Assembly: GCA_014240375.1 (NCBI GenBank)
Contig: JAAZXB010000005.1
Span: 64,297-128,296 of the forward strand
Source: Planctomycetota bacterium
GTDB lineage: Bacteria > Planctomycetota > UBA8108 > UBA1146
Length of the DNA: 64,000 nucleotides
Reading direction: 5' to 3'
In this document: positions 3,071-40,979 of the stretch, piece by piece
How positions within the stretch are numbered: the stretch's first letter is position 1
Layout of the letters: every line of letters starts with the position of its first letter
The notes under the pieces: model-generated
The model's database searches: none
What the model was told of the DNA's origin: nothing
Seen by the model: only the letters and a program-made list of their open reading frames with translations
Made by a program: the position numbers and the translations under genes

Positions 3071-4702
3071 TCATTCCGCGTTGTGCAAGAGGCGAGTGAT
3101 GATGGAGCGGAACAACCCTTCATCCCAGAACATCGGATCGATCATCTCCCACTGCAGAAGTCCCTCGTCATCGATGGCCAGTAACAGAGTCCCTCCGTGA
3201 GATCCAAGGTGCCGCTCGACCACTCCAGCTTCGATCCCCGGCTGAACTCCGAATGACCAGCCGAGTTGATTTTCCAGGGCGATTGCGGTCATTGAGGCCG
3301 CTTCTGTGTCGGCACGGGTATCGCGCAGGACGGAACTGATCCAGACGACCCTGAGGCCCGCCGCGGAGTACTCGATCTCCAGTTTCTTCAGCAAACTGAT
3401 GAAGCGAGATTGGCGGTTGGTCGCACGACTCGAATCACAGAAGAGACGCAGTTCCACTTTCTTCCCTGGATCCTTTTCTGGAGGTGCTTGAATCCAGGTC
3501 AATCCAGCGAGAGAGGGTGCAGGTTTTCCGTGCAGGACATCGATACGATGTGACATCGGTAGAGATTGGAAATCGAGGTAAGTCTTGGTCGCCATCGAGA
3601 TGGTTTCGCCGGAGTTGATCCGCTCGGAGAGTTTCTCATTGTAGGAGAGCAACGCCTGAAGAGCCGCCTCCTTCTCTCCCATCGCCAACTGGTAAAATCC
3701 CTCGTAAAAACCGGCTCGGTCCGCCATCAAGCGGAAGTCTGACTCCTTGCCCGCTGGGATCTGCCACTTCTGATCGGAATCGGGCAGGGAGATCTCTCCG
3801 CCGAGGGATCCCGCCTCCAGCACCGGCCCCCAGAGGCGCCACAAGTCGCGCCCCTGACGAAGGATGCCCAGATGGCGATGAGCCTTGTGGGTGAAGTAGA
3901 CCAGGTGTGGCAGAAACTGTGTTCTGGGATGATCCTTGAGGGCCAGTATTCCCGCAGTCATCATCTCACGGTATCTCTCGGCAATCTCCAGCGCTTCGAT
4001 TTGTTTGATGCGAATCTCGTCAGCATCTTCGAGGGAAGTGTCGAGTTGTAAGGCTCTGCCGAATGCGTCGGCGGATTTTGAAGCGCTTCTAGACTTCAAC
4101 AGGCAATCTCCGAGGATCACCTCCGCTCGGCAACGAAGTGCCGGTGAGATCTTGCTAGCGAGAGCTCTCTCGATGTTTCGCACCACCTCGTCGAGGTAGA
4201 TGAGTTGCTCGTCGAGGCGCTGTTGCGCGGTCATCGGAGCACCAAAGATCTTGGCTTCTTCATTCAATTCACCGAGGTGTCGATCGACATTGAGAATCAG
4301 CATCCGGCCCAGGTCGCAGGCGACGGTCGGGAATCCGCGGCTATCGGCGTGGTTGGCGATGTACTTTCGTCCTGCAGCGATGCCCTCATCGAGGATCAAG
4401 AAAATCCCAGGGAGATCATCGCGAGTCAGGGTCCGAGGATCGGGAATCGATTGCAACTTGGCGGTGACCAGAGCCGCCAGTTCCTCGGCAGATGCACTCT
4501 CCTGAGAGTCGTCGGAGTGAGGAGCGGTGTCCTCGGTGGTGGCTGGATCCTGGCCGTGAAGGAGAGACGACGGCACTTGAAAGGCACAGCAGGCCATCAG
4601 ACAGCAGGCCAGCAGGATGACCGCGCCGATCGCGCTACGACCCACGGTGACAGGTAGAGGGGGTTCAGTGAGGGGAGTTCCGAAGAGTCGGGAGAAGTCC
4701 AT
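3071..4702 (-). CDS. Membrane-anchored protein with a C-terminal TlpA-like thioredoxin-fold domain carrying CxxS (LFCDSSRA) in place of WCGPCR
   Basis: ORF is open to 4972, but the first 90 codons are low-complexity. ATG at 4702 is preceded by a GAAGG Shine-Dalgarno (ribosome-binding) sequence and followed by a TM segment (AIGAVILLACCLMACCAF). C-terminus aligns to the TlpA pattern GKPAP...L.G..W.....VEL.LFCDSS. Confidence 0.45.
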   Translation of the reverse strand: MDFSRLFGTPLTEPPLPVTVGRSAIGAVILLACCLMACCAFQVPSSLLHGQDPATTEDTAPHSDDSQESASAEELAALVTAKLQSIPDPRTLTRDDLPGIFLILDEGIAAGRKYIANHADSRGFPTVACDLGRMLILNVDRHLGELNEEAKIFGAPMTAQQRLDEQLIYLDEVVRNIERALASKISPALRCRAEVILGDCLLKSRSASKSADAFGRALQLDTSLEDADEIRIKQIEALEIAERYREMMTAGILALKDHPRTQFLPHLVYFTHKAHRHLGILRQGRDLWRLWGPVLEAGSLGGEISLPDSDQKWQIPAGKESDFRLMADRAGFYEGFYQLAMGEKEAALQALLSYNEKLSERINSGETISMATKTYLDFQSLPMSHRIDVLHGKPAPSLAGLTWIQAPPEKDPGKKVELRLFCDSSRATNRQSRFISLLKKLEIEYSAAGLRVVWISSVLRDTRADTEAASMTAIALENQLGWSFGVQPGIEAGVVERHLGSHGGTLLLAIDDEGLLQWEMIDPMFWDEGLFRSIITRLLHNAE

Positions 4703-5102
4703 TTCATAGCCTTCCAGCTGGGCAGAGCAGGGGTTGCAAAGAGGGGCCTTCGCCACCGGAGAATGGGATTCACGATCTCGGGTCGGTTCCCCTGCAAAGG
4801 GTATCACATCGGCAGGTTTGTTCGGAACCGGACCTTTGTAGGGAGAAATATCGAATCGAGCCGGCAGGTCCGGCTGAAGGAATCGTCCCCTGATGGTAAG
4901 ATATTTGCTGAAGAGACCTCTCACTGAGCCGTTGAAAAAACCTGGAGATCGAGGAGGAACAGCCCCCCTCACCTGGTGAGATGGCAGAAGCAGTGGAGGG
5001 TCGGGAGCGGTTCAGAGCTTCCAGTCTGCCAGACGCTGGATCGACCGCTTGACTTTCTGGGGCGGGATGATCTGGCCCCAGATGAATGGAGAGGAACGGA
5101 TC

Positions 5103-5882
5103 ATGGTCACTTTCCTGGTCTCAGGATTATTCTTGATTCAATTGTCGATCTCGGGGCAGGAGGCCCCTGGGCAGAGCCCTGCACCGGTTGAGCAACAGGC
5201 GGACTCGCCCGAAAGTGCCATCACCTCACCGATCACCCTGATCGGAAAGGAAGCACCGGAGTTGATCCTTTCCGATCTCTCGGGCAAGAGTTTTGACCTC
5301 TCCAGCCTGTCCGATCAGATCGTGGTGATGGAGTGGACCCTGCCAGAATGTCGTTTCAACCGCCGCATCTATGCTCAACACAAGATGATTCCGATGATGC
5401 GCCGCTGGGGCAAGCAGGGCGTCCGGTGGGTCAGTGTCAATTCGGCATTTTTTGCCCATCCGGCCAAGGTCCAGTCCTGGATCGACAAGTACAAGATCCA
5501 AAATCCCTACCTGTTCGATCCTACGGGGAGCTGTGCCGAGGCGTTCGGAGTCAAGAATAGCCCGACCTATCTGGTGCTGGATCGGGGAAAAATCGTCTAC
5601 CACGGTGCGCTCGACGATGACGTCTGGGGCTCAAAAACGGATCGGAAGCAATATCTCGATCAGGCGATCGGTCAGGTGGTCGAAGGAGTCGCGGTAGCCA
5701 ATCCGTTGACTCGCACCTATGGCATGGAGATTCGAACGCGCAGGACCGAGGATCTACGCCGCGCTGCCCTGAAGAAGATGCGTGAAGAAGCCCTCGAGCG
5801 TGAAGCGAATCCAGCTACCCCACCCGCAGAAGGTACCCCGCCCGCAGAAGTCGAGTCTTCCGAGGAGGATGGCCGCGAGTAA
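5103..5882 (+). CDS. Secreted TlpA/redoxin-like thiol-disulfide oxidoreductase homolog with a TxxC motif (WTLPEC)
   Basis: GGAGAGGAAC Shine-Dalgarno sequence then ATG at 5103. Hydrophobic signal segment. TlpA signature GKEAPE...LSGKSFDLSSL...VVMEWTLPECR...PTYLVLDRGKIVY. Confidence 0.6.
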   Translation: MVTFLVSGLFLIQLSISGQEAPGQSPAPVEQQADSPESAITSPITLIGKEAPELILSDLSGKSFDLSSLSDQIVVMEWTLPECRFNRRIYAQHKMIPMMRRWGKQGVRWVSVNSAFFAHPAKVQSWIDKYKIQNPYLFDPTGSCAEAFGVKNSPTYLVLDRGKIVYHGALDDDVWGSKTDRKQYLDQAIGQVVEGVAVANPLTRTYGMEIRTRRTEDLRRAALKKMREEALEREANPATPPAEGTPPAEVESSEEDGRE

Positions 5883-7774: not shown

Positions 7775-8905
7775 TTAGCAGCCGGAGAGATCGCACTCCA
7801 GGCTATCGGCTGCGGTCGGATCTGCGCCGCAGCCACTCTGGAGATTGGGCTCGGGAATGCCGGGGGAGTTGGGAACAAACAGGCTCCCTAACAGGAATAT
7901 TGCATCGGCGACATTGACCCCACCATCGTCATTGATGTCGCCAGCATCTCTGCAGGAGAGGGGAGGCTCCCCGGGGACAAACAGGCTCCCTAACAGGAAT
8001 ACCGCATCGGCCACATTCACTCCCGTGTCGCTATTGCAATCGCCTCGGATGAACTCATCGCCGACCGGGCAGGGCACCGCCACCTCGATCAGGGCGAGGC
8101 CATTGATGTCGTGGTCGAAGGTTCCGAGGAAAGTTTCATCGCCGTTGACGTTTACCGTGTAGGCGGAACGAGCGGTATCCCCCTGCGCCCAGAGAAATGT
8201 ATCCTGGTCCGCCAGGTAGGACAGGCTGCGGATCGGTTCACTCGAGAGCTGAGCAGAGATGTTGATGTTGGTCGTATCGCAGCTGTTGGAGCCAGGCGCA
8301 GAGGAAGGTTCCTCAAAGCTGGCGGGCTCTCCCGTGACATATCCTCCCGAGGCGCGGAAGATGGCTCCGCCGGAGCCGAGGCTGAGACTGTCGCCGCCAT
8401 TACTGCCGGGGTACTGACACAGATCGGTGGGGCCGCCGGTGATGGTGCTCAACTCACACAAGTTTGAACTTCCGGTACTCAGTTGATTGGTGATGGCGCG
8501 AATCTCGCCAGCCGAGTTGAAATCAAGATCATTGAAGTCGAGTACGGTGAATCCGACGATGGCTAGCGTATCGTCGATGGGATTGTATTCCATCAGCCAG
8601 GGGAAGGGCGCCGGAGAGGGGGGAAGGGAGGTCAGCGTCAGCATGTACCAGTTGCCGCTGGTGGGGTGAACTGCAATTCCTCGAATCCCATCGATCTCGA
8701 TGGCTCCGGGAATCGACATGGCGAACTCCTCCTCGACCTCGAGGGTGAGAGGGTTGACCCGTCGCACCACATCGTCTTGATCGGAAACGGTCAGCCAGCG
8801 AGTTTCGAAGCAAATCTGGGCTTCGGTGCATGTCGGAGCCAGCGTCATCCACAAGGCGAGAAGAGAAAGCACACCCAGGATTCGACGTGGACAATTCCGT
8901 TGCAT
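7775..8905 (-). CDS. Secreted protein with a C-terminal pair of dockerin-like repeats and a Cys-rich tail
   Basis: Signal peptide MQRNCPRRILGVLSLLALWMTLAPTCTEAQ. C-terminal modules CNSDTGVNVADAVFLLGSLF and DINDDGGVNVADAIFLLGSLF, then GCGADPTAADSLECDLSGC. The roughly 48-bp repeat at 7868-7915 and 7978-8025 encodes the duplicated module. Confidence 0.6.
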   Translation of the reverse strand: MQRNCPRRILGVLSLLALWMTLAPTCTEAQICFETRWLTVSDQDDVVRRVNPLTLEVEEEFAMSIPGAIEIDGIRGIAVHPTSGNWYMLTLTSLPPSPAPFPWLMEYNPIDDTLAIVGFTVLDFNDLDFNSAGEIRAITNQLSTGSSNLCELSTITGGPTDLCQYPGSNGGDSLSLGSGGAIFRASGGYVTGEPASFEEPSSAPGSNSCDTTNINISAQLSSEPIRSLSYLADQDTFLWAQGDTARSAYTVNVNGDETFLGTFDHDINGLALIEVAVPCPVGDEFIRGDCNSDTGVNVADAVFLLGSLFVPGEPPLSCRDAGDINDDGGVNVADAIFLLGSLFVPNSPGIPEPNLQSGCGADPTAADSLECDLSGC

Positions 8906-8970: not shown

Positions 8971-10332
8971 CTACTTCAAGGCTTTCTGAAGGGACTTCTC
9001 CAGTTGCTCATAACTCTGATAGCCCGCTTCTCGGCCGACCACATTACCTTTGCGGTCGATGAAATAGACCGTGGGTAACCTCTTTAAATGATACTGTTGA
9101 AATCCAACTCCATCGCCCCGGATCAGCATTCTCTGCTGTAACTGGTTCTCCTGAACGAACTCCCGGATGCGGGTCCGGCCGTCATTGTCAGCATTTATTG
9201 CCAATACCTCGACATTTTTGCTCCTGAAGTCCTTCTGGATCTTGCTGAGGTGCGGAGACTCCGCACGACAGGCACCTCACGAATAACCCCAGAACGCCAC
9301 CATCAAGGTCTTCCCCTGGAAATCGGACAGGTTCACCATCTTCCCGTCGAGACCCTCAAGGGAGAAGTCGGGGGCTGGCTTCCCCATCATCTTCTTTGCT
9401 CGAACATCTGGATCGAGCGGTTGGGACGCGATCTTTTTGCTCGATTTGAGCAGAGAAGCGACCTCCTCCACGACTTCAGCCAGGGGGCCCTTCTTGTGGT
9501 CCTTCTGTCCCTTCTCGAACATCTTCTCCGCCATCTCGACCGCCGCCAGCGACATCCCCTTGCGCAGGACTCTCACCACCGGGGCGAGGAATTCATAGGC
9601 CTCTTCGACCTGCTGCGATTCCTCCTCCTCGATCAGTCCCGCTTCCAGTCTCTCGACTCGCAAGGTGCGCTCCTCGGAGGTGGCGTTCTCTTCATCGCCA
9701 CGCAGCAAGGTGGCTGCCCATTCCGCTCGCTTCAGCGATCCGCCGCCACTCAGGTACAATGTTTCCTTGAACGCACTCAGGCGCAACGCTCTGGCGCCTC
9801 CGCGGATCTGGATCTGGCCCCCGGCCAGCAGGCCCGTCAGGATCAGTTGCCCATCGTCGTCGATCGCTTCGGTTCGTTCGACCGAGATCTGCCTTCTCAA
9901 TCCGACCGGGGTGCCATCGGCCCAGCCCAGCCCAGCTCCCTCGGATCCCGCCCCGTGGACCGAGAGCAACATCTCCATCACTGCAGGGGAGAGGGGATCG
10001 AACAGTTCCGGTCTCGGTTTGCCGGAGCCGCGGATCATCATCGAACCGATGGGGAATCCGCCCGGATAGGTGCCATTGGAAGCGGTCGCACGCCAGACCC
10101 AGCGGTTTCCACCGGGTGCTGGGATCTGGAAGATGGTGACCTCGAATTCGAGGACCTCTTCTCCCCGGGTTCTCTCGACCTTCCAGACCGCTTTCGCCGA
10201 AGGATTCTGTTCCTCTTCATCATTGCCAGCCTGGGCCGGAAGGGAGGTGGGTTGGAGCAGAGACAGCATCAGGGATGCGAGTAACACGCTACCCAGATGA
10301 GTCTTGAGTCGATCAATTGTCATACAGATCAC
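8971..10332 (-). CDS. Secreted TlpA-like thiol:disulfide oxidoreductase selenoprotein candidate. In-frame UGA (9277..9279) gives a UxxC motif (FWGYS-U-GAC-RAE).
   Basis: ORFs 9277..10332 and 8971..9204 are in the same frame, separated only by a TGA. The joined sequence GKPAPDFSLEGLDGKMVNLSDFQGKTLMVAFWGYS[U]GACRAESPHL...VEVLAINADND...PTVYFIDRKGNVV is a complete TlpA domain. The TGA sits exactly at the first Cys of CxxC. Hairpin GTGCGGAG-A-CTCCGCAC at 9250..9266, 11 nt 3' of the UGA on the mRNA. N-terminal signal peptide. Confidence 0.7.
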
Positions 10333-14993: not shown

Positions 14994-15036
14994 CGCATGA
15001 CCTGGATGAACTGAACGACCAACGGAGGAGGGTGTC

Positions 15037-15621
15037 ATCGGTTGGCATGAAAGCCTGAAACAAGCTCAAGAGGAAGCGCAGGTCGATGAACGACCGATCC
15101 TGATCATCCTCGAGGCACCCGGCTGACTCGGTTGCAAGCGCCTGGATACCGTGACGTATCCAGATCCTCACTTCATCGCTGCCGTCGATTCGCTGGTAGC
15201 GCCGATTCGCATCAATATCGCCGATCGTCACGAGGACTTTCGCGATGCGACGGTGATGACCAAGATCCCCTTTTCACCTCGATTCCGCCTCTTCAGTTGC
15301 GACCGTAAGCGGTTACTGCGGGAATGGACCGGTTGGATGCCCACCGCGGAGCTGATCGCCGAGTTCCACATCGCCCGCGGTATCGATCGGCTGGAACGGA
15401 AGGATCCGGCAGCAGCGGCGGATCAGTTCGATTCTGCGCTGGCGGCTGCCGAGGATGGACCGGCCACCGCAGAGATCCTCTACCGCAGGGGGATGGCCGC
15501 CTTCATCGCAGGGAAGTTTGACTGGCAGCCACTGAGGAGAGACTGGAACCGAGTGGTCGAAGAATTTCCAGGCACTCGCTGGGCTCACCACGCATCGGTC
15601 ATCGAGGATGCTCCGCAGTGA
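15037..15621 (+). CDS. Thioredoxin-family selenoprotein candidate. In-frame UGA (15124..15126) gives a UxxC motif (EAPG-U-LGC-KRLD). Paralog of the WCGWC lipoprotein at 33174..34130.
   Basis: The frame from 15010 reads ...EEGVIGWHESLKQAQEEAQVDERPILIILEAPG[TGA]LGCKRLDTVTYPDPHFIAAV.... This aligns residue by residue with KDILINFTGSDWCGWCKKLEGEVF of the 33174 gene, with TGA at the first Cys. Hairpin GGATAC-cgtgac-GTATCC at 15144..15161, 18 nt 3' of the UGA. Start uncertain: strong GGAGGAG Shine-Dalgarno sequence at 15025-31 but no ATG/GTG/TTG before the TGA. ATC at 15037 is the best-spaced candidate. Confidence 0.55.
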
Positions 15622-22649: not shown

Positions 22650-23093
22650 ATGGGGCAACAAGTGGGCTCTCCTCTGGCGAAAAGGCTCTGCTGGCTGCTG
22701 GTGGTCGCCACTGTGACCTCGGGGTGGTCACCCGGCTGGGCCCAGCAGGGGATTCTCGATGGAGATCTCGATGGCGAGTCGGGGGTCCAGCGGATGAGAG
22801 ATGTGCAGATCGGTGGTTACTTTGATCTGGAACTCTTCATCGACTCGAATCGCTTCGATTTCCGTATCCATCCACGGGTGCCGCTGCTGGATGCCATGGT
22901 CACCGAGCATGTTCACTTCCCCTGCGAGATCGAGTTCGAGTACGGCGGACCGCCGATGGCGACCGTTGAAGGAGATGTCAAGGTCGAGTACGCCGATGTC
23001 GATCCGTTGCTGGATCGAGTTCCCGGGGCTACGGCCCTGATCCTGGTCGCAGGGGAAAAGAGCGCGCGCGGCTACCGGAAGTCAGGTCACTGA
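22650..23093 (+). CDS. Hypothetical secreted protein, translationally coupled to feoB
   Basis: Signal-like N-terminus LCWLLVVATVTSGWSPGWAQQ. Its stop overlaps the feoB start (TGATG). No recognisable family. Confidence 0.45.
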   Translation: MGQQVGSPLAKRLCWLLVVATVTSGWSPGWAQQGILDGDLDGESGVQRMRDVQIGGYFDLELFIDSNRFDFRIHPRVPLLDAMVTEHVHFPCEIEFEYGGPPMATVEGDVKVEYADVDPLLDRVPGATALILVAGEKSARGYRKSGH

Positions 23094-25051
23094 TGGTCAG
23101 CGAATCCACCGATGCGCCGCTACACATCACACTTGTGGGGAATCCCAACGTCGGAAAGAGCACTCTTTTCAATGCTCTGGTGGGGGCCAATTCGAGAATT
23201 TCCAACTACCCAGGGATCACTGCGGATTCGGTGATCGGTGAGTTTTTCGGTGCCCAGCAATTACGCATCGTCACCGACTTGCCGGGAACCTATAGCCTCG
23301 AACTCAATCTTCCCGAGGCTCAACTGTGTCACCAGCACTTGAAATTCGATGTACCGCCGCAAAGCGAGCAACAGAATCTGATCATCGTGGTCATCGAAGC
23401 GGTGGGATTCCCGAGAAATTTTCAGCTTCTGGCACAGTTGATGGCACTGGGAGTTCCGATGGCTGTGGTGGTGACGAAAACTGCCGAGGCGCAACTTCGT
23501 GGTTACCAGATCCAGTTGCAGGCGTTGGAAGAGTCGCTGGGAATTCCGGTGGTCGAGGCTGCGGAGAAATCGGCGATGCGGACCCTCGATGTGGAAGCGC
23601 TGATCGCTGCCGCGCGGATTCCCACGCCGGTTCACCCAGACCAGGAATCGATCGAGCAGTGGAGTTCAGATCTGCTGGCGAAGACAAGTCTTCCGGTCCG
23701 TCCCGAGCAGGCTCGCAGAAGGCGAAGAAGAGATGATCGACTCGACCGTGTGCTGGTTCATCCCATCGCCGGTTCTGTTCTGTTCTTGCTGGCGATGATC
23801 TGCATGTTTGGATCGGTCTACTGGATGGCCCAGGTACCGATGGAGTGGATCGATGTGGCATTTGGAACCGTCGGGGGGTGGATCTCCACTTCGATGGAAG
23901 ATGGTCCGTTGCGTGGATTGCTGGTGGACGGAGTCATCGGTGGAATCTCGGGAACGATGGTCTTTCTGCCGCAAATCCTGCTGCTCTTCTTTCTCATCTC
24001 CTTGCTGGAAGAAACCGGGTACATGGCGCGAGCCGCATTCGTCGCCGATCGCTGGCTTCGGCCCTTCGGCTTGCCGGGACAGGCGTTCGTACCGCTCCTT
24101 TCGAGTCATGCCTGTGCGATTCCAGGAATCCTCTGTACCCGGCTGATCCCCGATCGAAGAGATCGGCTCGCCACCATCCTGGTGGCGCCGTTCCTCTCCT
24201 GTTCGGCGCGGTTACCGGTGTACATCTTGATGGTCGGGATCCTCGCCCCGACCAATCCACTGGTCGCGGGCTGCGTATTCGTCGGCTGCTACCTGCTCGG
24301 AGCTTTGGTGGCAGTGGGATCTGCGGGTCTGGTCCGCAAGACCCTGTTGACCGGACCCAGTCTGCCGATGGTGCTGGAACTACCACCGTACCGCTTGCCG
24401 TCGATCGGAGATGCCGCTCGCATCGCCATCGATCGAGGATGGACCTTCTTGAAGAATGCCGGCTCGGTGATCCTGCTGATCTGTATCGCCTTGTGGTGGC
24501 TCAGTGCTTATCCGACGACGCCAGAAGGTCCGGAGATCGAGGCACTTCGTGTCGCCGCAGAAGCCCACTCCGATCCGGGGGAGTCACAACGGTTGCTGGA
24601 CCAGGCGCAGTCTCTCCATCTGAGGGAGTCTGCGAGGGGATCCTACGCCGGACAACTGGGTCGCTGGATCGAGCCTGTTCTGGCCCCGATCGGTGCAGAC
24701 TGGCAACTGTCGGTGGCGATCCTGGCGAGTTTTGCTGCGAGAGAAGTGTTCGTCTCTTCACTCAATGTGATGGTGGGGGTCAGAGAAGAGGAGGCTGCAG
24801 CGAGTTCCATCGCTCGAATTCGAGCATCGACACGAGATGATGGATCGCCGTTGCTTCCTCCTGCGGCTGCTGGAGGACTGCTGGTCTTCTACATCCTGGC
24901 GATGCAGTGCTTGCCGACCCTGGTGGTGACCAGTCGTGAGGCGGGAGGGATCCGCTGGGCGTTGCTACAATTGATCTGGATGACATCTGTAGCGTGGATC
25001 CTCGGAGTGGTGGCACGTCAGTGGATGCTGGCCGCGGGATTTTCTGGATGA
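23093..25051 (+). CDS. feoB: Ferrous iron transport protein B
   Basis: 652 aa. N-terminal G-domain GNPNVGKSTLFNAL, then the polytopic membrane domain with the gate motifs of FeoB. TGA stop. Confidence 0.9.
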   Translation: MVSESTDAPLHITLVGNPNVGKSTLFNALVGANSRISNYPGITADSVIGEFFGAQQLRIVTDLPGTYSLELNLPEAQLCHQHLKFDVPPQSEQQNLIIVVIEAVGFPRNFQLLAQLMALGVPMAVVVTKTAEAQLRGYQIQLQALEESLGIPVVEAAEKSAMRTLDVEALIAAARIPTPVHPDQESIEQWSSDLLAKTSLPVRPEQARRRRRRDDRLDRVLVHPIAGSVLFLLAMICMFGSVYWMAQVPMEWIDVAFGTVGGWISTSMEDGPLRGLLVDGVIGGISGTMVFLPQILLLFFLISLLEETGYMARAAFVADRWLRPFGLPGQAFVPLLSSHACAIPGILCTRLIPDRRDRLATILVAPFLSCSARLPVYILMVGILAPTNPLVAGCVFVGCYLLGALVAVGSAGLVRKTLLTGPSLPMVLELPPYRLPSIGDAARIAIDRGWTFLKNAGSVILLICIALWWLSAYPTTPEGPEIEALRVAAEAHSDPGESQRLLDQAQSLHLRESARGSYAGQLGRWIEPVLAPIGADWQLSVAILASFAAREVFVSSLNVMVGVREEEAAASSIARIRASTRDDGSPLLPPAAAGGLLVFYILAMQCLPTLVVTSREAGGIRWALLQLIWMTSVAWILGVVARQWMLAAGFSG

Positions 25052-25194
25052 GCGATTTCCCCCTCTCCGATCCTCAGTTCTGGTGGGTGACGCTACTGGC
25101 CGTGGCAGCGGTGGTACTGCTGATCGTGAAACGAGTTCGTCAGTCGAACGATCAGGACCAGAACGGTTCTTGCGGTGGTTGTTCCACGAAATAG
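25048..25194 (+). CDS. FeoB-associated Cys-rich small membrane protein
   Basis: 48 aa. Start ATG overlaps the feoB stop (ATGA). Single TM helix (WWVTLLAVAAVVLLIV) followed by GSCGGCS. Matches the FeoB-associated Cys-rich peptide family. Confidence 0.6.
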   Translation: MSDFPLSDPQFWWVTLLAVAAVVLLIVKRVRQSNDQDQNGSCGGCSTK

Positions 25195-25291
25195 CCGCGG
25201 TTGGCGCTGGAACTCTATCCCATTCAATGTTTGGATGCCGAGGGTTCACTGCTCTGAATCGTTTCGGAAATCAAGTTAGGAGTCCTGTCCA

Positions 25292-26473
25292 ATGAAGATG
25301 ATTGCTACTCATGCATTTCTCTTGCTGAAGGTGACCATCCTCCTTTGCATCGCGCCGATCCACGGTTCCGCATCGACAGTGGTGATTCTCGACGATCCAG
25401 CTCCCGCGGTGGTTACCAAGGCACAGGAGACTGCCGCACGCAATGCGCTGGACAAGATGCAGAAGCGGATGGATGAGGCGTGGACCGAGTACCTGGCCCC
25501 GCTGCGAGAAGCGAAGACTGCCGAGGAACGAGATGCCATCGAATTGGATCCAGAAAAGGATCCGGGTGTGATGTTCCTGCCTGAATTGTTCAAGTTCAGC
25601 AGTGACCATCCGGGGACTGCTGCGTGTCTCGAAGCTCTTTCTCAGGTGATCTCGATGGCCTCGCGAGATGAAAAGAACCGCTGGATGCTCAAGCAGGTGG
25701 TCGATCGGATCATCCTCGAATACATCGAGCATGAAGAACTCAAGGATCTGGTGCGCTTTGGTCATTACAACCCACCTTCTCCAGAAAACTTGTCATTGCT
25801 GAGAGCGGCTGCCGACCGATCTCCTCACCGAACCGTTCAGGGCTCTGCTTTCTATGCTCTTGGAAAACTGCTCGGATCTTCAGAAGAGACGAGAGCCGAG
25901 GGGAAGCAACTCCTCCAACGGGTCCAGAAGGAGTATGCGGATGTGCCATTTTTTCGGGAGACCACCTATGGCGAGAAGGTCGCAGGAGATCTGTTTGAAC
26001 TGGATCATCTGCAGGTCGGGCAAGTGGCGCCAGAGATCATCGGTACCGGACTCGATGGGGATCTGATGCAACTCTCCGCGTTTCGCGGCAAGGTGGTACT
26101 GCTCGATTTCTGGGGTGATTGGTGAGGCCCTTGCCGGGCGATGTACCCACACGAGCGGTCGCTCGTGAAGAAACACTCCGCGGATCAATTTGCCATCGTC
26201 GGGGTCAACTCGGAGAATACCATCGAAGCTGCTCGCGAAGCGGTGAAGAAAAACAAGCTGACCTGGAAGAACTTCTACGATGGGGGTGGGGCCAACCCCA
26301 CCTCTGGTCCCATCGCCACTCGCTGGAATGTCAGCGGCTGGCCCACCACCTATCTTCTCGATGAAAATGGCGTGATTCGCTACAAGGATGTCCGAGGTGA
26401 AACTCTCGACGCAGCACTCGAGACTCTGATCGATCAGTGGAAGGCGGCCCGGGAGGCGGAGGCGAAACTCTAG
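25292..26473 (+). CDS. Secreted TlpA-like thiol:disulfide oxidoreductase selenoprotein candidate. In-frame UGA (26123..26125) gives a UxxC motif (FWGDW-U-GPC-RAM).
   Basis: ORFs 25292..26125 and 26141..26473 share a frame across a single TGA. The joined sequence FRGKVVLLDFWGDW[U]GPCRAMYPHERSLVKKHSADQFAIVGVNSE...WPTTYLLDENGVIRYK is a textbook TlpA/ResA domain with TGA at the first Cys. Hairpin ACGAGCG-gt-CGCTCGT at 26151..26166, 26 nt 3' of the UGA. Signal peptide MKMIATHAFLLLKVTILLCIAPIHGSAS. TAG stop. Confidence 0.7.
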
Positions 26474-26561
26474 CGATCACTCAGGCGAGTTCGTCGTCGA
26501 TCGAGGAGCGTTGTGCCCTATGGGACAACGATTCGATCGAGCCCCCTGACCCGGATGGAGT

Positions 26562-26604
26562 GGGGAGGGAGCAGCCGGTTCCGGCTGTTTCCTCCCCTTT
26601 CTTC
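26562..26604 (+). terminator. Candidate rho-independent terminator after the 25292..26473 gene
   Basis: Nested GC stem GGGGAGGGAGCAGCCGG-tt-CCGGCTGTTTCCTCCCC followed by TTTCTTCG. Confidence 0.45.
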
Positions 26605-27103
26605 GAATCGGAGCCCACCCACAGTTCCTCGAAACCAGCGATTCCTCAAGACCAGCGATCGAACCGAGGGACAGACGCAGCAGCAGCAGGCTGCCGCCTA
26701 GCATCCACCCTAGCGGAGTCCGCGAATCGCTGGCGTTTCATGCTGAAGCCACCAGGGGGCGAACCGGGTCAGCAGCAGGGAACCGTATCCGAGCAATGAC
26801 AGCGTGATCTTTGGACCTTCGCTCCACGGAGTCCGTTCGATTCGATGCAGGAGCACGAAGAGCAGTAGTGCGAGTGAGATGCTGGGGTCGTGGATGCTGG
26901 GGTCGTGGATGATGGCGAGCATCTACTGCGGTGAATCCACCGGAGCGTCCCGAATACTGAAGAAGTGCCACGAATCCACCGAGCAGGACCGTCAGCAAGA
27001 ACAGGGTCAGGAGTACTTGCGTCGATGGATTGACCCTGGCCAGGGTCAAGCGGGCTTGCTTGTAGAATCGAGTCACTGGACCGGTGCGCCCGTGAGATTG
27101 AAG

Positions 27104-27508
27104 CTATGAAGGGACGGGAATGGCGAGGATCGAGGAAGCGACCTGCTCACTGATTCCGACACGGCTTCCATCGATATCGAGGATGCAGGTCCCTCTCGAT
27201 TGACACAGGTGAAGATCGCAGTCGTTGCACAGGCCCATCGCTTCGAGCAGGGGCCGGTGGGATTCGGGCACCGATTCGCGAACCAGACGGATCCGTTGGC
27301 CTCGATTCAGATCCCTCAGCAAGCGGGGAGCGACAGGGGAGAAGTCGATGGTAGATGAGCGAGGAGTAGATGAGTGAGGAGTAGATGAGTGAGGAGTAGA
27401 TGAGTGAGGAGTAGATGAGTGAGGAGTAGATGAGTCGACAATCCGGGACTGCTGCGGGAGGGAGGTGGAGCCCAGCGGATCCTGGTTGGAGTTTTCTCGA
27501 AACATCAA
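27104..27508 (-). CDS. feoA: FeoA-family (SH3-like) small protein with an N-terminal (SSTPH)x5 repeat and a CxxC-containing core
   Basis: C-terminal GQRIRLVRESVPESHRPLLEAMGLCNDCDLHLCQSRGTCILDIDGSRVGISEQVASSI fits the FeoA pattern (G.R..V.......rL..mGl.pG..i.v.....i.v.g..i.l....A..I). In-frame 15-bp tandem repeat at about 27355-27430. Divergent from the DtxR-like gene. Confidence 0.55.
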   Translation of the reverse strand: MMFRENSNQDPLGSTSLPQQSRIVDSSTPHSSTPHSSTPHSSTPHSSTPRSSTIDFSPVAPRLLRDLNRGQRIRLVRESVPESHRPLLEAMGLCNDCDLHLCQSRGTCILDIDGSRVGISEQVASSILAIPVPS

Positions 27509-27654
27509 TTCCTCCTCGAAAGGCCTGGATCGCCAGAAATGGCGGATTGTCTCACCGCTCCGGTGCGGCTACCCTTGTCAGGTGCTCTGGCACCGGCGGC
27601 AAGTCCGCTCTCATGAATGAGAGTGTAGCGATCTGTTCGGGGGGGTGTCAACAT

Positions 27655-27670
27655 GTTTGGGCTGCCAAAC
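27655..27670. promoter_or_regulatory. Palindromic candidate operator GTTTGG-gctg-CCAAAC (extended arms acaTGTTTGG / CCAAACttgt) in the feoA / DtxR-like divergent promoter
   Basis: Same core as 22521..22536 upstream of the feoB operon. 80-95 bp upstream of the regulator start at 27750. Confidence 0.4.
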
Positions 27671-27749
27671 TTGTCGGCTGTAATAGCCACCAAGGGTGCC
27701 AATGCTGGCCTTTGCGGCGAGTTCTGGCTCTGACCTTTCAGGAGGATTC

Positions 27750-28298
27750 GTGAGCGACTGGCGAGAATTCGAGCAGAATCCCGTAAGCCACTCGGCGGCA
27801 CATCACCTGACCACCATCCAGTGGCTCCTCGATGATCAGGGATATGCCCGCGTCTCCGATGTGGCGAGGCACCTGGGCATCACCCGAGGCAGTGTCTCGG
27901 TCACACTCAAGGGGCTGCGCCAGCGAGGCCTGGTGGTCGAGGATGATCACAAGCACCTTTCTCTGTCGGAGGAAGGAGTTCAAATCGCCCGAGGAATTCG
28001 AACCAAGCGGGTCCTGATCCAGGCACTTTTTCGTGAAGTACTGGGAGTTCCCGACGAGGTGGCAGAACAAGATGCCTGCAAGGTCGAGCACCTCATCAGC
28101 GACCAGACCGCAGAAGCTACCGGTGGTTTCCTGGTCGGGTTGGAGAAGATCTCCTCCGACTCGCAGTGGACTCACTTGCTCGAATCTCTTCAGCGGCTAG
28201 CCGCTGCCACTCCTGCCTCCTTCCCGGGCAGTGCGACGCAAGAGCTGGCTCTTCGACTCGAGAAGAAGGACCCCCAAGGTGAGGATCAACCATCATGA
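27750..28298 (+). CDS. DtxR/MntR-family metal-dependent transcriptional repressor (two-domain form, no SH3 tail)
   Basis: AGGAGGA Shine-Dalgarno sequence then GTG at 27750. HTH and metal-site region HHLTTIQWLLDDQGYARVSDVARHLGITRGSVSVTLKGLRQRGLVVEDDHKHLSLSEEG. Confidence 0.75.
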   Translation: MSDWREFEQNPVSHSAAHHLTTIQWLLDDQGYARVSDVARHLGITRGSVSVTLKGLRQRGLVVEDDHKHLSLSEEGVQIARGIRTKRVLIQALFREVLGVPDEVAEQDACKVEHLISDQTAEATGGFLVGLEKISSDSQWTHLLESLQRLAAATPASFPGSATQELALRLEKKDPQGEDQPS

Positions 28299-28747
28299 CC
28301 CGAATCATCTCTCGCACCGAAGCGATTGAAAAACTCAACGGCTTGCTCGCCGAGGAACTGGAGGCCTCGATCCGTTACTTGCACCTCAGTTCGATGGTGC
28401 AGGGGATCGATCGATTGATCGTTCAAAAGGTCCTGCAAGAGAATCACGAGGAGACGATCGAACACGCTCAACAGGTCAGCGAAAAGATCCTTCAACTCGG
28501 TGGCAATCCGACTCCCAGAATCCAACTCGATCTCGATGGTCGGCGATATTCTGGCCCGCAGGCGATCGCAGTGGCGCTGATCTTTGAACAGGCAGCGCTC
28601 GATGGTTACCGGGATCTGCTCGACCATGTCGACGGTAGTGGGGATGTGGTGCTGGAGGAGTTTGCCCGACAGCAGGTGGCTGTCGAATCGGAGCACGTCG
28701 CTCAACTACAGATGCTGCTGGTGGAGACTCCTGTTGGCGATCAGTGA
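28295..28747 (+). CDS. Ferritin-like (Dps/ferritin superfamily) four-helix-bundle protein
   Basis: LNGLLAEELEASIRYLH...ENHEETIEHAQQVSEKILQLGGNP. Start overlaps the regulator stop (ATGA), so an operon with the DtxR-like gene. Confidence 0.6.
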   Translation: MTRIISRTEAIEKLNGLLAEELEASIRYLHLSSMVQGIDRLIVQKVLQENHEETIEHAQQVSEKILQLGGNPTPRIQLDLDGRRYSGPQAIAVALIFEQAALDGYRDLLDHVDGSGDVVLEEFARQQVAVESEHVAQLQMLLVETPVGDQ

Positions 28748-33173: not shown

Positions 33174-34130
33174 CTAGTGATCGGGTACTCCGTCGCCGTC
33201 GTGATCGTGACCGTCGGTGGCATCATGGTCGATGCCATGGATCGCATCTTCGATCATCTTGCGACCGCGCTCGTTGTCCTTGACCTCCGGGCTCTTCAAC
33301 ATCCGGTTGAGGAACAGCTTGGCGCCATCCTTGTCTCCTTGCTCAGCCAGCCAGCCCTGGCAGAACCACAGTGCATTGAGCACCTCGGGGCCGCCCATTT
33401 CTGAATTGTCCTTGAGGAACTGCACCAGTGTCGGGAAGTCAGGATCCTGGGTATTGAGCAATTTCAACAGCTGTCCACGAGCCCGATGAGAAGCGGCCTT
33501 CTTGACCAGTTCCGGGTTGTCGGACTTCTCCGCCATATCGAGGAACTTACCGAAGGCGGGAAACCCGAGCAGGCCCTGATCCGCCATCACTTCGAATGCG
33601 TCCGGCAGCATATCACCCTGTTGAGCCTCATCTTCGGTGGCGAGCAACGCCTTGATCTTGTCGCCCTTGGCACGCAATTCGACGATGTGCTCGAGGTATT
33701 TTTCTGGCCCGCCCGGCTGATACCCTGTCTTGGCATAGGGGCGCATCTGGTGATCTGCCAGGATGATGGTGGGGAATCCGTCCACTCCCATCTCATCGCG
33801 GCTTTTTCCATTGAGCATTTCATCCACGACCTTGGCCTTCGCCTCTTCGCTGCGAGGGAAGTCGAGGTACAGGTAGATGTACTGCTTACCGGCGGTTTCA
33901 TGGAACGCTGGCAGTGAGAACACCTCGCCCTCGAGTTTCTTGCACCAACCACACCAGTCACTTCCGGTGAAGTTGATGAGGATGTCCTTACCCTCTTTAC
34001 GAGCCATTTCCTTGGCGGCACCGATATCCATCATCCAGGGGAGTCCTACCTCGGCCGCAACAGTCTCGGGTTCGTCACCGAGGGCCAGCGGAGAGCAGGC
34101 CAGGAAAGCCGTCAGAAAAATCATCGACAT
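33174..34130 (-). CDS. Thioredoxin-family lipoprotein (WCGWC active site)
   Basis: GGAGA Shine-Dalgarno sequence then ATG at 34130. Lipobox-like MSMIFLTAFLACSPL. Thioredoxin motif KDILINFTGSDWCGWCKKLEGEVF. Immediately upstream of, and co-oriented with, the polyferredoxin. Confidence 0.7.
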   Translation of the reverse strand: MSMIFLTAFLACSPLALGDEPETVAAEVGLPWMMDIGAAKEMARKEGKDILINFTGSDWCGWCKKLEGEVFSLPAFHETAGKQYIYLYLDFPRSEEAKAKVVDEMLNGKSRDEMGVDGFPTIILADHQMRPYAKTGYQPGGPEKYLEHIVELRAKGDKIKALLATEDEAQQGDMLPDAFEVMADQGLLGFPAFGKFLDMAEKSDNPELVKKAASHRARGQLLKLLNTQDPDFPTLVQFLKDNSEMGGPEVLNALWFCQGWLAEQGDKDGAKLFLNRMLKSPEVKDNERGRKMIEDAIHGIDHDATDGHDHDGDGVPDH

Positions 34131-34396
34131 CGAAAGTCTCCTTGCAGCGGAGCCACCATCGGTGCTCCGGGTAACGGGTCGTGTTGAAGTGGTCAGAATA
34201 CCCGATGGAGAACAGATCCGAAAGACGATGAAGAGCGTTGGAGAGGCGCTGCAGGCCATTTTTAGGGGGAAGGGGGTGACCTCGAGGACCATCTCGCCGA
34301 TGATCTGGCCACCGCAGCCTGCGGTGGCCGCGATCGACGGTTGCCGGCGCAAGATGGTCCACTGCAGGAACGGTTTGGGGCGGGGGGGAGTTCAAG

Positions 34397-39849: not shown

Positions 39850-40979
39850 TGAAGAGTGGTAACCGATGGTGGCTGTGGATACTGACCGGATGGATCGGTT
39901 GGTGCACGACGGTCGAGGGATCCGAGAACAGCGTGGTCATCCGCCCGGTCGCAGTGGTGGCTCCCGACGGTAGCATCTGCGAGCAGATGGCGGTGGTGAT
40001 TCACTCCGATGGGACCATCGCTGCGGTGATCCCGGCGGACCAGGCAGACCCGGCACTGACCACGGTCCACGCTGCGGCGGGATCGGTGCTCACCCCGGGG
40101 CTCCATGACCTGTTTGGAGCCCTCGGTTGTGGCCAGGACGCCTTGCTGGCGGGGACGGTCCTGTTCGATTCTCAACTCGATGCGGCGGCTGCCTTCGATC
40201 CGACCACTGGCGCACTCGAACGGGCTGCACGGCACGGGATTCTATACACCACGGTGGCGGCAGTGCCGAGCGGGATCCGCAATGGCAGCAGTGCCACATT
40301 CCTCTGCAAGAGTGATGCTACGGCTCACCCGGTGGCGGCTGGAAGACCGATGTACGCACTGGCCGATTCGGTCCTGCAGTCATCGAGAGAGCCGACCAGT
40401 CGATCGGCGATGGTCTCGTTGTGGAAGGACTTTATCGTCGAGGGAGCGGGCCAGAACAGGGATCCAGGAGTTCTCTTCTGCCCCGATGCGATCGATTTTC
40501 GCCAGTCCCTCTCTCTGCGCTGGAAATCCTTGCCGGTGCTGGTCCACCAGGGGGACGCACGATCTCCGGTGGAGCGGCTCGCCGGAAAAGGTGCGCTGAT
40601 GGTGGTGGGCCCCTTTCTCGAGGACGGCAATCCGGCAGCGGTCGCGACTGCAGTGCGGGCGGCGCGAACCGGAACTGAACTGGCCTTTCGCGGTGGCTTA
40701 CCCGCCGCTCCTGCAAACCACCTGAGAGGGAGTGCAGCCATCGCCGTGGCGGCTGGACTCGATGGAGATGCGGCGCGTAGAGCCCTCTTCAGCAACCCCG
40801 CGCGGGTGGTGGTGGGCCACGGCATCGGAGTGATCGAGCCGGGGGCTCGTGCCGACCTGGTGCTGTTTTCCGCCGATCCGCTCGATCCGGCTGCCCGGGT
40901 GCTCCAGGTCTGGCGCGGTGGCCAGCAGCTGGGGATGAATACTTTCGACTCGATCCGGGATCTGGGAGGAATTCGATGA
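39849..40979 (+). CDS. Amidohydrolase-fold protein 2 of the array (PGLHDLFGALG in place of the HxH motif)
   Basis: N-terminal beta-sandwich-like segment then TPGLHD. C-terminal GARADLVLFSADPLDPAARVLQVWRGG. Start overlaps the previous stop. Confidence 0.55.
   Translation: MKSGNRWWLWILTGWIGWCTTVEGSENSVVIRPVAVVAPDGSICEQMAVVIHSDGTIAAVIPADQADPALTTVHAAAGSVLTPGLHDLFGALGCGQDALLAGTVLFDSQLDAAAAFDPTTGALERAARHGILYTTVAAVPSGIRNGSSATFLCKSDATAHPVAAGRPMYALADSVLQSSREPTSRSAMVSLWKDFIVEGAGQNRDPGVLFCPDAIDFRQSLSLRWKSLPVLVHQGDARSPVERLAGKGALMVVGPFLEDGNPAAVATAVRAARTGTELAFRGGLPAAPANHLRGSAAIAVAAGLDGDAARRALFSNPARVVVGHGIGVIEPGARADLVLFSADPLDPAARVLQVWRGGQQLGMNTFDSIRDLGGIR

What the first reader, a model, noticed from the sequence alone, without database searches (positions are those of the whole stretch)
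8971..10332. TlpA-like periplasmic oxidoreductase recoded with selenocysteine (UxxC), split into two ORFs by an in-frame UGA plus a SECIS-like hairpin
The six-frame track shows two adjacent minus-strand ORFs (9277..10332 and 8971..9204) in the same frame, separated only by a TGA at 9277..9279.

Read through, the sequence is GKTLMVAFWGYS-[TGA]-GACRAESPHL...VEVLAINADND...TVYFIDRKGNVV. That is one uninterrupted TlpA/ResA thioredoxin domain, and the TGA falls exactly where the nucleophilic Cys of W-C-x-x-C-R belongs.

A perfect 8-bp-arm hairpin (GUGCGGAG/CUCCGCAC, 9250..9266) starts 11 nt 3' of the UGA, which is the geometry of a bacterial SECIS element. The protein has a signal peptide and a roughly 300-aa N-terminal domain of unknown function.
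Basis: partly seen in the sequence, partly recalled or inferred. Interest (0 to 1): 0.8.

Follow-up and report, generated by a model that had tools for sequence, protein, structure and literature searches.

The report
Selenocysteine TlpA-like periplasmic redox protein
This is a real gene from a marine Planctomycetota bacterium in which a conserved in-frame UGA plus an RNA hairpin puts selenocysteine at the active site of a secreted TlpA/ResA-type thiol-disulfide enzyme; this type of selenoprotein is already known, but public databases annotate this family as truncated.

Summary
One minus-strand gene (10323..8971) is interrupted only by TGA at 9279..9277.

- **Position of the TGA.** Pfam, PDB sequence matches and fold matches all show one continuous ResA/TlpA-type thioredoxin domain across it. 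The TGA sits at the first Cys of CxxC (motif FWGYS-U-GAC-RAESPHL).
- **Conservation.** The TGA and the in-frame 101-109-codon continuation are present in every one of about 35 homologous loci examined. These include 23 species-representative Planctomycetota MAGs and homologs matched only by profile (E 1e-20 to 1e-29).
- **Sec/Cys pair.** Of 40 family clusters, 38 stop exactly there. Two continue with Cys.
- **RNA element.** Synonymous sites are near saturation across the gene (pS about 0.75) but zero in the six codons that form the hairpin. The hairpin meets all four published bacterial SECIS criteria. A Cys homolog encodes the same peptide with different codons and has no such hairpin.
- **Stop usage.** TGA is the normal stop of 18 of 33 genes here.
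- **Second case.** A second conserved UxxC selenoprotein gene lies 5 kb away.

Not shown: the Sec machinery genes (absent from all the DNA I held) and selenium in the protein.

UxxC Trx-fold selenoproteins are common in marine bacteria. I rate this a new member of a known kind, with an undescribed lipid-carrier-like N-terminal domain.

The parts
8971..10323 (-). Complete selenoprotein gene: ATG 10323 to TAG 8973..8971, 450 codons including one Sec codon. Gene callers split or truncate it at the UGA.
   Evidence: Searches give the sequence and frame. Homologs start at the Met that corresponds to ATG 10323. Public annotation is a 348-aa 'redoxin domain-containing protein' or 'hypothetical protein'.
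9277..9279 (-). In-frame UGA read as selenocysteine (residue 349). It is the first position of the UxxC redox motif (U-G-A-C).
   Evidence: It is TGA in the window and in all about 35 homologous loci examined. It aligns with the first Cys of CxxC in ResA 4nmu. It is replaced by Cys in P0095, P0141 and P0129.
9250..9266 (-). SECIS upper stem-loop: GUGCGGA / GUC / UCCGCAC (7 bp, 3-nt loop). It is encoded by the codons for R-A-E-S-P-H.
   Evidence: Folding gives -9.9 kcal/mol. The six codons are identical in all 8 distinct sequences, with pS = 0 against 0.73-0.77 elsewhere. The only stem change in 24 loci is G-C to G-U. The loop varies only between GUC and GGC. All four bSECIS criteria quoted are met.
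9246..9279 (-). Possible extended SECIS: a lower 4-bp helix UGAG/CUCA that includes the UGA itself, a 9-nt 5' internal loop, then the upper hairpin.
   Evidence: This comes from inspection and the folds. The lower helix is weaker evidence: one lineage (L006/L020) breaks a pair (CUG for CUC), and alternative pairings are predicted.
10228..10323 (-). Predicted Sec-type signal peptide (residues 1-32; basic n-region, hydrophobic core, A-Q-A before the cleavage site; no lipobox Cys).
   Evidence: By inspection of the translation. The model shows an N-terminal helix followed by a disordered linker. No signal-peptide predictor was available.
9631..10200 (-). N-terminal beta-rich domain (residues about 42-231): an open antiparallel beta-barrel of lipid-carrier type, with no Pfam family.
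9388..9627 (-). Helical bundle linker (residues about 233-312): three long helices plus one short helix.
   Evidence: Secondary structure of both models.
8974..9387 (-). C-terminal TlpA/ResA-type thioredoxin-fold domain (residues 313-450) that carries the UxxC motif.

Best explanation
The two ORFs are one gene for a secreted selenoprotein of about 450 residues.

**How the UGA is read (inferred mechanism).** During translation, UGA349 is decoded as selenocysteine. The mRNA hairpin 10 nt downstream (GUGCGGA-GUC-UCCGCAC), embedded in the codons for the conserved RAESPH segment, acts as a bacterial SECIS. It would recruit SelB-GTP-Sec-tRNA(Sec) to the ribosome.

**What the product is.** It has a signal peptide, an open beta-barrel domain resembling lipid or lipoprotein carriers, a helical bundle, and a ResA/TlpA-type thioredoxin domain. 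The active site of that domain is U-G-A-C instead of C-x-x-C.

**What it most likely does.** It probably works in the periplasm as a thiol-disulfide reductase or exchanger. The selenolate attacks a substrate disulfide (or a sulfenic or peroxidised group). The resolving Cys352 then forms a selenenylsulfide, which a membrane electron donor of the DsbD/CcdA type re-reduces. The N-terminal domain would select or hold the substrate, possibly a hydrophobic one.

**Shown here:** one continuous domain across the UGA, a conserved UGA, translation downstream of it, a Sec/Cys pair, and RNA-level selection on a SECIS-conforming hairpin.

**Inferred:** actual Sec insertion, periplasmic location, direction of the redox reaction, electron donor, substrate, and the role of the N-terminal domain.
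For: 1. The domain is continuous across the TGA, and the TGA sits at the catalytic Cys position.
2. The TGA, followed by an in-frame 101-109-codon continuation G-x-C-R-A-E-[SA]-P-H-L..., is present in the window, in 7 further distinct loci, in 24 more including 23 GTDB species representatives, and in 3 remote homologs. The samples are independent (TARA, JGI, NCBI MAGs, Logan).
3. The segment between the TGA and the first possible restart codon evolves like coding sequence (pN/pS 0.30, against 0.34 upstream and 0.21 downstream).
4. Sec/Cys pair: 38 of 40 full-architecture clusters end right before the catalytic residue. P0095 and P0141 continue with C-x-x-C-RAEAP.
5. Of 163 invariant degenerate codons, only 16 are identical in all 8 sequences. 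Six of those are the consecutive hairpin codons, with pS = 0 there against about 0.75 elsewhere.
6. The one stem substitution seen keeps pairing (G-C to G-U) at the cost of His to Tyr.
7. Cys homolog L039 encodes the same CRAEAPHL peptide with 4 of 7 codons different and has no such hairpin.
8. The hairpin meets the published bSECIS constraints: 3-nt loop, 7-bp stem, G[U/G] at the start of the loop, 17 nt from the UGA, and -9.9 kcal/mol.
9. TGA is the ordinary stop of 18 of 33 confident genes in the window, so the recoding is site-specific.
10. A second conserved UxxC gene has its own hairpin with covarying pairs, at TGA 15124..15126.
11. Complete Sec machinery is documented in other Planctomycetes (PMC4807772).
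Against: - No selA, selB, selD or tRNA-Sec is present in the window or in about 0.4 Mb of related loci. The trait in this genome is therefore inferred, not shown.
- No Rfam family matches the hairpin. This is expected, because bacterial SECIS elements are poorly captured by covariance models.
- The stem is nearly invariant, so there is no true compensatory covariation, only one wobble-preserving change.
- The RAExPHL peptide is itself conserved in the family's Cys-containing homologs, so part of the nucleotide conservation is protein-driven. The synonymous-site argument and the Cys-homolog control address this, but the control is a single sequence.
- Nothing here shows selenium in the protein, and the function is assigned by homology only.
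Confidence: 0.88

Rival explanations
1. The TGA is a sequencing or assembly error, or a recent inactivating mutation, of a TGC/TGT Cys codon. The gene would then be an ordinary Cys-TlpA or a pseudogene.
For: A single-base change would be enough. Public annotation treats the gene as ending here.
Against: The same TGA occurs in every one of about 35 loci from independent samples, assemblers and species, down to profile-only similarity. Both halves stay under purifying selection.
Confidence: 0.01
2. Two separate genes: a 348-residue N-terminal protein that really terminates at the TGA, and an independently translated C-terminal fragment.
For: Gene callers sometimes call a 78-140-residue downstream ORF.
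Against: - The break falls inside the thioredoxin fold, between beta1 and the active-site helix.
- The first start codon in the window is 24 codons downstream, past the redox motif.
- Those 24 codons evolve as coding sequence.
- Cys homologs are single polypeptides.
Confidence: 0.02
3. The UGA is read through, but not as Sec. Candidates are near-cognate Trp or Cys insertion, or a lineage-wide UGA reassignment.
For: The Sec machinery was not found in the DNA available. Low-level UGA read-through exists in bacteria (general knowledge).
Against: - TGA terminates 18 of 33 genes in the window, and it terminates this very gene in several relatives.
- The position is the catalytic nucleophile, where only Cys or Sec works.
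- An ultra-conserved hairpin that fits SECIS geometry has no role in simple read-through.
- The second recoded gene is also UxxC.
Confidence: 0.05
4. Dual output: Sec insertion is inefficient, so the truncated 348-residue lipid-carrier-like protein is also made and has its own function. The UGA would then act as a selenium-dependent switch. This adds to the main explanation rather than excluding it.
For: Bacterial Sec insertion competes with RF2 (general knowledge). The N-terminal domains fold independently in the models.
Against: There is no evidence for a function of the truncated form. That form would end with an orphan beta-strand of the thioredoxin domain.
Confidence: 0.04

Closest known systems
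UxxC selenoproteins of the TlpA-like / Prx-like thiol:disulfide oxidoreductase classes. [quoted passage not shown]
   Same: The catalytic domain families match (AhpC-TSA/Redoxin Pfam hits, TlpA-like fold). Sec sits at the first position of UxxC. A bacterial SECIS lies directly downstream. The host is a marine bacterium. Cys-containing homologs exist.
   Different: The domain is fused to a roughly 300-residue N-terminal beta-barrel plus helical bundle that has no Pfam family, and this fusion is not among those described in PMC2398784 section 9. The family is almost entirely Sec-type (38 of 40 clusters), whereas the GOS families have many more Cys than Sec forms. I could not compare it directly with the reference accessions of those catalogued families.
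ResA (Bacillus) / CcmG-DsbE / TlpA (Bradyrhizobium): extracytoplasmic thiol-disulfide reductases of cytochrome c and CuA/Sco maturation.
   Different: - The nucleophile is Sec rather than Cys.
- Scores fall below the NCBIfam cut-offs for ResA (94 against 170) and TlpA (66 against 230), so it is not an ortholog of either.
- It has a cleavable signal peptide and a large extra domain instead of a membrane anchor.
- There are no cytochrome c maturation or Sco genes in the conserved neighbourhood.
NCBIfam NF041054 'ResA-like WAxxUGC motif-containing protein' and the related UGC-containing TlpA family selenoproteins.
   Same: It is a ResA-like thioredoxin domain with Sec in the active-site region, and the protein is longer than a bare thioredoxin domain.
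   Different: The score is 45.5 bits against a cut-off of 300. The motif here is WGYS-U-GAC (UxxC), not WAxxUGC (UxC).
E. coli fdhF SECIS, the reference bacterial SECIS (recalled from general knowledge, not tested here).
   Same: Both have a short GC-rich upper hairpin beginning about 11 nt after the UGA, with a G-U-containing apical loop. The apical sequence here is GGAGUCUCC. By recollection, fdhF has GCAGGUCUGC.
   Different: No bulged U is evident in the stem, and the loop has 3 nt rather than 4. SelB binding has not been tested.
LolA/LolB lipoprotein carriers and the N-terminal beta-barrel of large lipid transfer proteins (vitellogenin, lipovitellin, ApoB, MTP).
   Different: Sequence identity is 4-11% and there is no family-level sequence match. 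Ligand binding is not shown. This is a resemblance of fold only.

Membership tests
Bacterial selenoprotein gene (Sec-UGA recoding) | In-frame UGA at a conserved position, with the coding sequence conserved on both sides | tested here: met
   TGA is present in all about 35 loci. pN/pS is 0.34 upstream, 0.30 for the stretch from codon +10 after the UGA up to the first restart codon, and 0.21 downstream of that restart codon.
Bacterial selenoprotein gene (Sec-UGA recoding) | Cys-containing homologs that align Cys with the UGA (Sec/Cys pair) | tested here: met
   P0095 (SSSCRSCRAEAP), P0141 (SIACKECRAEAPHL) and P0129 (GVGCRLCKTEAPHL).
Bacterial selenoprotein gene (Sec-UGA recoding) | bSECIS downstream of the UGA: 3-9-nt apical loop, 4-16-bp upper stem, G in the first two loop positions (G[G|U]), 16-37 nt from UGA to loop, MFE <= -7.5 kcal/mol (PMC13188914, Fig. 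2A legend) | tested here: met
   The loop is GUC (GGC in remote homologs), the stem has 7 bp, the distance is 17 nt, and the MFE is -9.9 kcal/mol. Synonymous sites in the hairpin are frozen.
Bacterial selenoprotein gene (Sec-UGA recoding) | selA, selB, selC (tRNA-Sec) and selD present in the same genome | not testable with these tools
   None is in the 64-kb window or in 32 related loci. Indirect support: a second recoded UxxC gene in the window, and the Sec trait in other Planctomycetes.
Bacterial selenoprotein gene (Sec-UGA recoding) | Selenium incorporated at the UGA position | not testable with these tools
   This needs 75Se labelling or mass spectrometry.
TlpA-like thioredoxin-fold family (cd02966; ResA, CcmG, TlpA) | Thioredoxin fold with the ResA/TlpA-type insertion, matching solved members over the whole domain | tested here: met
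TlpA-like thioredoxin-fold family (cd02966; ResA, CcmG, TlpA) | W-C-x-x-C redox motif at the N-terminus of helix 1 | tested here: met
   FWGYS-U-G-A-C aligns with FWGTW-C-K-P-C of ResA. The first Cys is replaced by the UGA codon.
ResA or TlpA proper (NCBIfam NF002854 / NF047696) | Score at or above the curated cut-off | tested here: not met
   ResA scores 94.4 against 170, and TlpA 66.1 against 230. It is a relative, not an ortholog.
NCBIfam selenoprotein families NF041054 (WAxxUGC_long), NF053656 (TUGYCR) and NF040769 (SelL-related) | Score at or above the curated cut-off, and the family's motif | tested here: not met
   Scores are 45.5 against 300, 18.5 against 100, and 28.4 against 120. The motif is YSUGAC.
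Peroxiredoxin (AhpC/TSA, PF00578) | Pfam gathering score | tested here: met
   81.2 bits against a cut-off of 26. PF00578 also collects TlpA-like proteins, so this alone does not make it a peroxidase.
Peroxiredoxin (AhpC/TSA, PF00578) | Peroxidatic P-x-x-x-[TS]-x-x-C motif, in which Thr/Ser replaces the first Cys of CxxC (general knowledge; Sec-Prx is TxxU in PMC2398784) | tested here: not met
   The position three residues before Cys352 is the Sec codon, which gives UxxC, the thioredoxin/TlpA arrangement.
LolA/LolB or large-lipid-transfer-protein N-terminal barrel | Family-level sequence match or demonstrated hydrophobic ligand cavity | tested here: inconclusive

The most novel reading that the evidence does not exclude
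This is an uncatalogued selenoprotein family that is almost exclusively Sec-type and seen so far only in marine Planctomycetota. In it, a lipid-carrier-like beta-barrel (LolA/vitellogenin-type fold) is fused to a TlpA-type selenoenzyme. The barrel would deliver a hydrophobic substrate, such as an oxidised lipid or a lipoprotein or lipid-linked thiol, to the selenolate. That would make it a periplasmic lipid-directed redox repair enzyme rather than a cytochrome- or Sco-maturation factor. Its SECIS, frozen across the whole family and overlapping the RAExPH codons, would be a clean natural model for how an RNA signal and a protein motif are encoded together.
Probability: 0.2. Interest if true: 0.55.

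Novelty: new member of a known kind. Interest (0 to 1): 0.35.

Why it matters
In practice, a widespread family is mis-annotated. It occurs in at least 23 species-level marine Planctomycetota genomes and in many metagenome contigs. Everywhere it is annotated as a 348-residue 'redoxin domain-containing' or 'hypothetical' protein that lacks its active site. The finding gives the correct gene model.

The window also shows that these organisms carry at least two selenoprotein genes within 6 kb. This adds a lineage to the marine selenoproteome.

Biologically, the Sec:Cys ratio is unusually high. The hairpin is invariant across homologs that are recognisable only by profile search. Together these make a good test case for the cost and benefit of Sec over Cys in an exported thiol-disulfide enzyme, and for overlapping RNA and protein constraints.

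It does not change what is known about how selenocysteine is encoded.

Tried and rejected
- **Rfam.** The gathering-threshold scan of the whole window and the permissive E-value scan of 9180..9320 gave no SECIS or other relevant family, only two chance snoRNA fragments.
- **tRNA-Sec.** ARAGORN found no tRNA at all in the window or in 32 loci.
- **sel genes.** Pfam scans of about 30 window ORFs, plus the precomputed Pfam annotation of all fetched loci, show no SelA, SelB or SelD. I found no route to the other contigs of the same MAG.
- The AFDB50 fold library was unavailable.
- **Blind scan for other recoded genes.** A scan for other TGA-joined ORF pairs was too noisy at 59% GC to be useful.
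- **The 633-residue ORF.** The in-frame stretch after the TGA of ORF 3071..4972 looks non-coding, so I rejected it as a selenoprotein candidate.
- **Covariation.** I looked for compensatory changes in the hairpin by going to remote homologs, but the stem is identical there, so only synonymous-site and wobble evidence is available.
- **Literature.** I searched four selenoproteome papers for Planctomycetes or TlpA mentions. Three had none. I did not find this architecture described.
Full report
**1. What is in the sequence**

On the minus strand one reading frame runs from ATG 10323 (an upstream GTG lies at 10332) to TAG 8973..8971. It is interrupted only by TGA at 9279..9277. The read-through is ...GKTLMVAFWGYS-[TGA]-GACRAESPHLSKIQKDFRSKNVEVLAINADND...

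With Cys placed at the TGA, Pfam AhpC-TSA (81 bits) and Redoxin (79 bits) match residues 313-441 as one stretch across the TGA. NCBIfam's best model is the ResA subfamily at 94 bits, below its cut-off of 170. phmmer against PDB sequences aligns the whole C-terminal domain with ResA 4nmu (E 5e-22). That alignment puts the TGA on the first Cys of FWGTW-C-KP-C.

It is the only such site in the window, where 0.06 are expected by chance. It folds as 7 bp plus a 3-nt loop at -9.9 kcal/mol.

The only amendments are the hairpin geometry and the fact that the downstream frame is open from the first codon after the TGA.

**2. Is the TGA real and is it read through?**

A search of 5.8 billion proteins returned 20 clusters, 97% down to 48% identical, all from Planctomycetota MAGs or marine metagenomes. 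Every complete one ends at ...FWGYS.

I fetched the DNA for seven distinct representatives. Each has TGA there, followed in frame by G-[AIS]-C-RAESPHLS... for 101-102 codons. A scan of one genome per GTDB species found 23 more loci, all Planctomycetota-type MAGs, with the same arrangement.

An exhaustive profile search of 1.84 billion representatives found remoter members (E 1e-69 to 1e-10). These again end exactly before the catalytic residue. For the four whose DNA I fetched (L012, L036, L037, L038), the stop is TGA and the frame continues for 101-109 codons.

In total, 38 of 40 clusters with the full architecture stop at this point. Two (P0095, P0141) continue with C-x-x-C-RAEAP. A third Cys form, P0129, has a more divergent N-terminus. 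This is the classical Sec/Cys pair.

A Nei-Gojobori count on 8 distinct sequences gives these pN/pS values:

| Segment | pN/pS |
|---|---|
| Upstream of the TGA | 0.34 |
| Codons +10 to +24 (between the hairpin codons and the first possible restart codon) | 0.30 |
| Remainder of the gene (from codon +25) | 0.21 |

The region immediately after the TGA is therefore translated.

TGA is the normal stop of 18 of 33 confident genes in the window. In several relatives it even terminates this same gene. There is no global reassignment; the recoding is local.

**3. The RNA element**

Synonymous sites in this gene are close to saturation among the 8 sequences (pS 0.73-0.77). Only 16 of 163 invariant degenerate codons use a single codon throughout. 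Six of those 16 are the consecutive codons +4 to +9 (CGU GCG GAG UCU CCG CAC), which form the hairpin, and pS there is 0.

Variation across the loci is minimal:
- Across 24 further loci the only stem change is CAC to UAC. It converts a G-C pair to G-U and costs a His-to-Tyr change.
- In three remote homologs the stem is identical and only the middle loop base changes, U to G (Ser to Ala).
- The Cys homolog L039 encodes the same CRAEAPHL peptide as CGC GCC GAG GCG CCG CAU CUG, with no equivalent hairpin. This is a single control.

The published bacterial SECIS model asks for the following (PMC13188914, Fig. 2A legend):

| Criterion | Required | Found here |
|---|---|---|
| Apical loop | 3-9 nt | 3 nt |
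| Upper stem | 4-16 bp | 7 bp |
| Loop start | G, then G or U, in the first two positions | GUC, or GGC in remote homologs |
| UGA to loop | 16-37 nt | 17 nt |
| MFE | <= -7.5 kcal/mol | -9.9 kcal/mol |

A lower 4-bp helix UGAG/CUCA that includes the UGA is possible but less well supported. Rfam has no matching family.

**4. Is the organism a Sec user?**

This is the weak point. No selA, selB, selD or tRNA-Sec lies in the window or in any fetched locus. I could not reach the rest of the genome.

There are two indirect supports.
- A second gene in the window (about 15037..15621, + strand) has a conserved in-frame TGA at 15124..15126 in the motif LEAPG-U-LGC-KRL. Pfam Thioredoxin_7 (30.5 bits, cut-off 27) spans that TGA. 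It has its own hairpin, CUGGAUAC-CGUGAC-GUAUCCAG, which shows wobble and compensatory changes among relatives.
- Complete Sec-insertion gene sets are documented in other Planctomycetes (PMC4807772).

**5. What the protein is**

The N-terminus looks like a cleavable signal peptide (basic n-region, hydrophobic core, AQA; by inspection).

A full-length model of Cys homolog P0141 (pLDDT 88.2) gives two sets of matches:

The architecture is therefore signal peptide, lipid-carrier-like open barrel, helical bundle, and TlpA/ResA-type domain with UxxC.

The gene order around it is conserved in all long loci: EF-G paralog, aldehyde dehydrogenase, an AhpC/TSA-like gene, a glycosyltransferase-4, a VWA-like 234-265-residue protein, this gene, a 370-378-residue secreted protein, and IleRS. 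The neighbourhood contains no cytochrome c maturation, Sco or DsbD/CcdA genes.

**6. Mechanism**

Shown:
- a continuous catalytic domain;
- a conserved Sec codon at the nucleophile position;
- translation beyond it;
- a SECIS-conforming hairpin under RNA-level selection.

Inferred from established knowledge of bacterial Sec decoding and of TlpA/ResA enzymes:
- SelB-dependent insertion of Sec at UGA349;
- export to the periplasm;
- attack of the selenolate on a substrate disulfide or oxidised group;
- resolution by Cys352 to a selenenylsulfide;
- re-reduction by a DsbD/CcdA-type donor.

The UxxC arrangement argues for a thioredoxin-type exchanger rather than a peroxiredoxin. A peroxiredoxin would have [TS]-x-x-C/U (PMC2398784). 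A substrate-holding role for the barrel domain is speculation from fold alone.

**7. Comparison and novelty**

UxxC thioredoxin-fold selenoproteins are the commonest class of bacterial selenoproteins. The catalogued families include:
- 'Prx-like thiol:disulfide oxidoreductase' (PF00578, UxxC);
[quoted passage not shown] - Prx-like 1/3 and Trx-like families, with hundreds of members in the GOS data (PMC2398784).

This gene belongs to that kind. It does not reach the cut-offs of any curated NCBIfam selenoprotein model, nor those of ResA or TlpA. Its N-terminal fusion is not among those described in PMC2398784. Public records annotate it as a truncated 348-residue protein.

I therefore rate it a new member of a known kind. 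The particular points of interest are the near-exclusive use of Sec in the family, a SECIS frozen across deep divergence and overlapping the conserved RAExPH codons, and an unusual domain partner.

**8. Verdict**

It is of moderate interest (0.35). It corrects a widespread annotation error and adds a lineage-specific selenoprotein architecture, but it would not surprise a selenoprotein specialist.

Noticed in passing
window 15037..15621 (+); TGA at 15124..15126; hairpin about 15142..15163: This is a second unannotated selenoprotein gene. It reads ...ERPILIILEAPG-[TGA]-LGCKRLDTVTYPDP..., and gene callers split it into a 29-residue and a 155-residue ORF. The TGA is conserved in 13 other distinct locus sequences. 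Pfam Thioredoxin_7 (30.5 bits) spans the TGA, TPR-like helices follow, and there is a weak NCBIfam hit to the VPGUxxT selenoprotein family. The downstream hairpin CUGGAUAC-CGUGAC-GUAUCCAG shows wobble and compensatory changes.
   Followed up: partly
window 15025..15039 (+): In the window and its two closest relatives (L013, L014), the second selenoprotein gene has no ATG, GTG or TTG between the upstream in-frame stop and the Sec codon. ATC sits where homologs have Met, and it is preceded by GGAGGAGG. This suggests initiation at a non-canonical ATC codon.
   Followed up: partly
window 5049..5882 (+) and 33174..34352 (-): There are two further secreted thioredoxin-fold proteins with Cys active sites. 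One is an AhpC/TSA-Redoxin-like protein, conserved next to the target in all long loci. The other is a Thioredoxin_2/Thioredoxin_7 protein with a WCGWC motif. The region is rich in extracytoplasmic thiol-redox genes.
   Followed up: no
window 7775..8905 (-): A 376-residue secreted protein lies 65 nt downstream of the target on the same strand and is conserved in that position in all loci. It has no Pfam hit. Two C-terminal repeats (D-x-N-x-D-G-x-V-N-V-A-D-A-[VI]-F-L-L-G-S-L-F) look dockerin-like by eye. It may be co-transcribed with the target.
   Followed up: no
window 3071..4972 (-): This 633-residue ORF has no Pfam family. Homologs are called as 493-544 residues, followed by a 120-133-residue ORF with a weak 2Fe-2S_thioredx hit in one locus. 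Its TGA stop is followed by 143 sense codons in frame, but their translation looks non-coding, so I did not treat it as a Sec candidate.
   Followed up: partly
window 40976..50851 (+): Six consecutive, partly overlapping amidohydrolase-family paralogs (Amidohydro_1/3) lie on one strand, an unusual tandem array.
   Followed up: no
window 23093..28747 (+): This is an iron-homeostasis cluster: FeoB, a DtxR-type iron-dependent repressor, and a ferritin-like protein whose start overlaps the repressor's stop.
   Followed up: no
proteins P0062, P0105, P0110, P0113, P0117, P0142, P0148, P0154: A further set of 313-383-residue proteins match only the start of the thioredoxin domain and end at ...FWGYG, the same point. 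This suggests a sister group of Sec-truncated TlpA-like selenoproteins with a different N-terminal domain. Their DNA was not examined.
   Followed up: no
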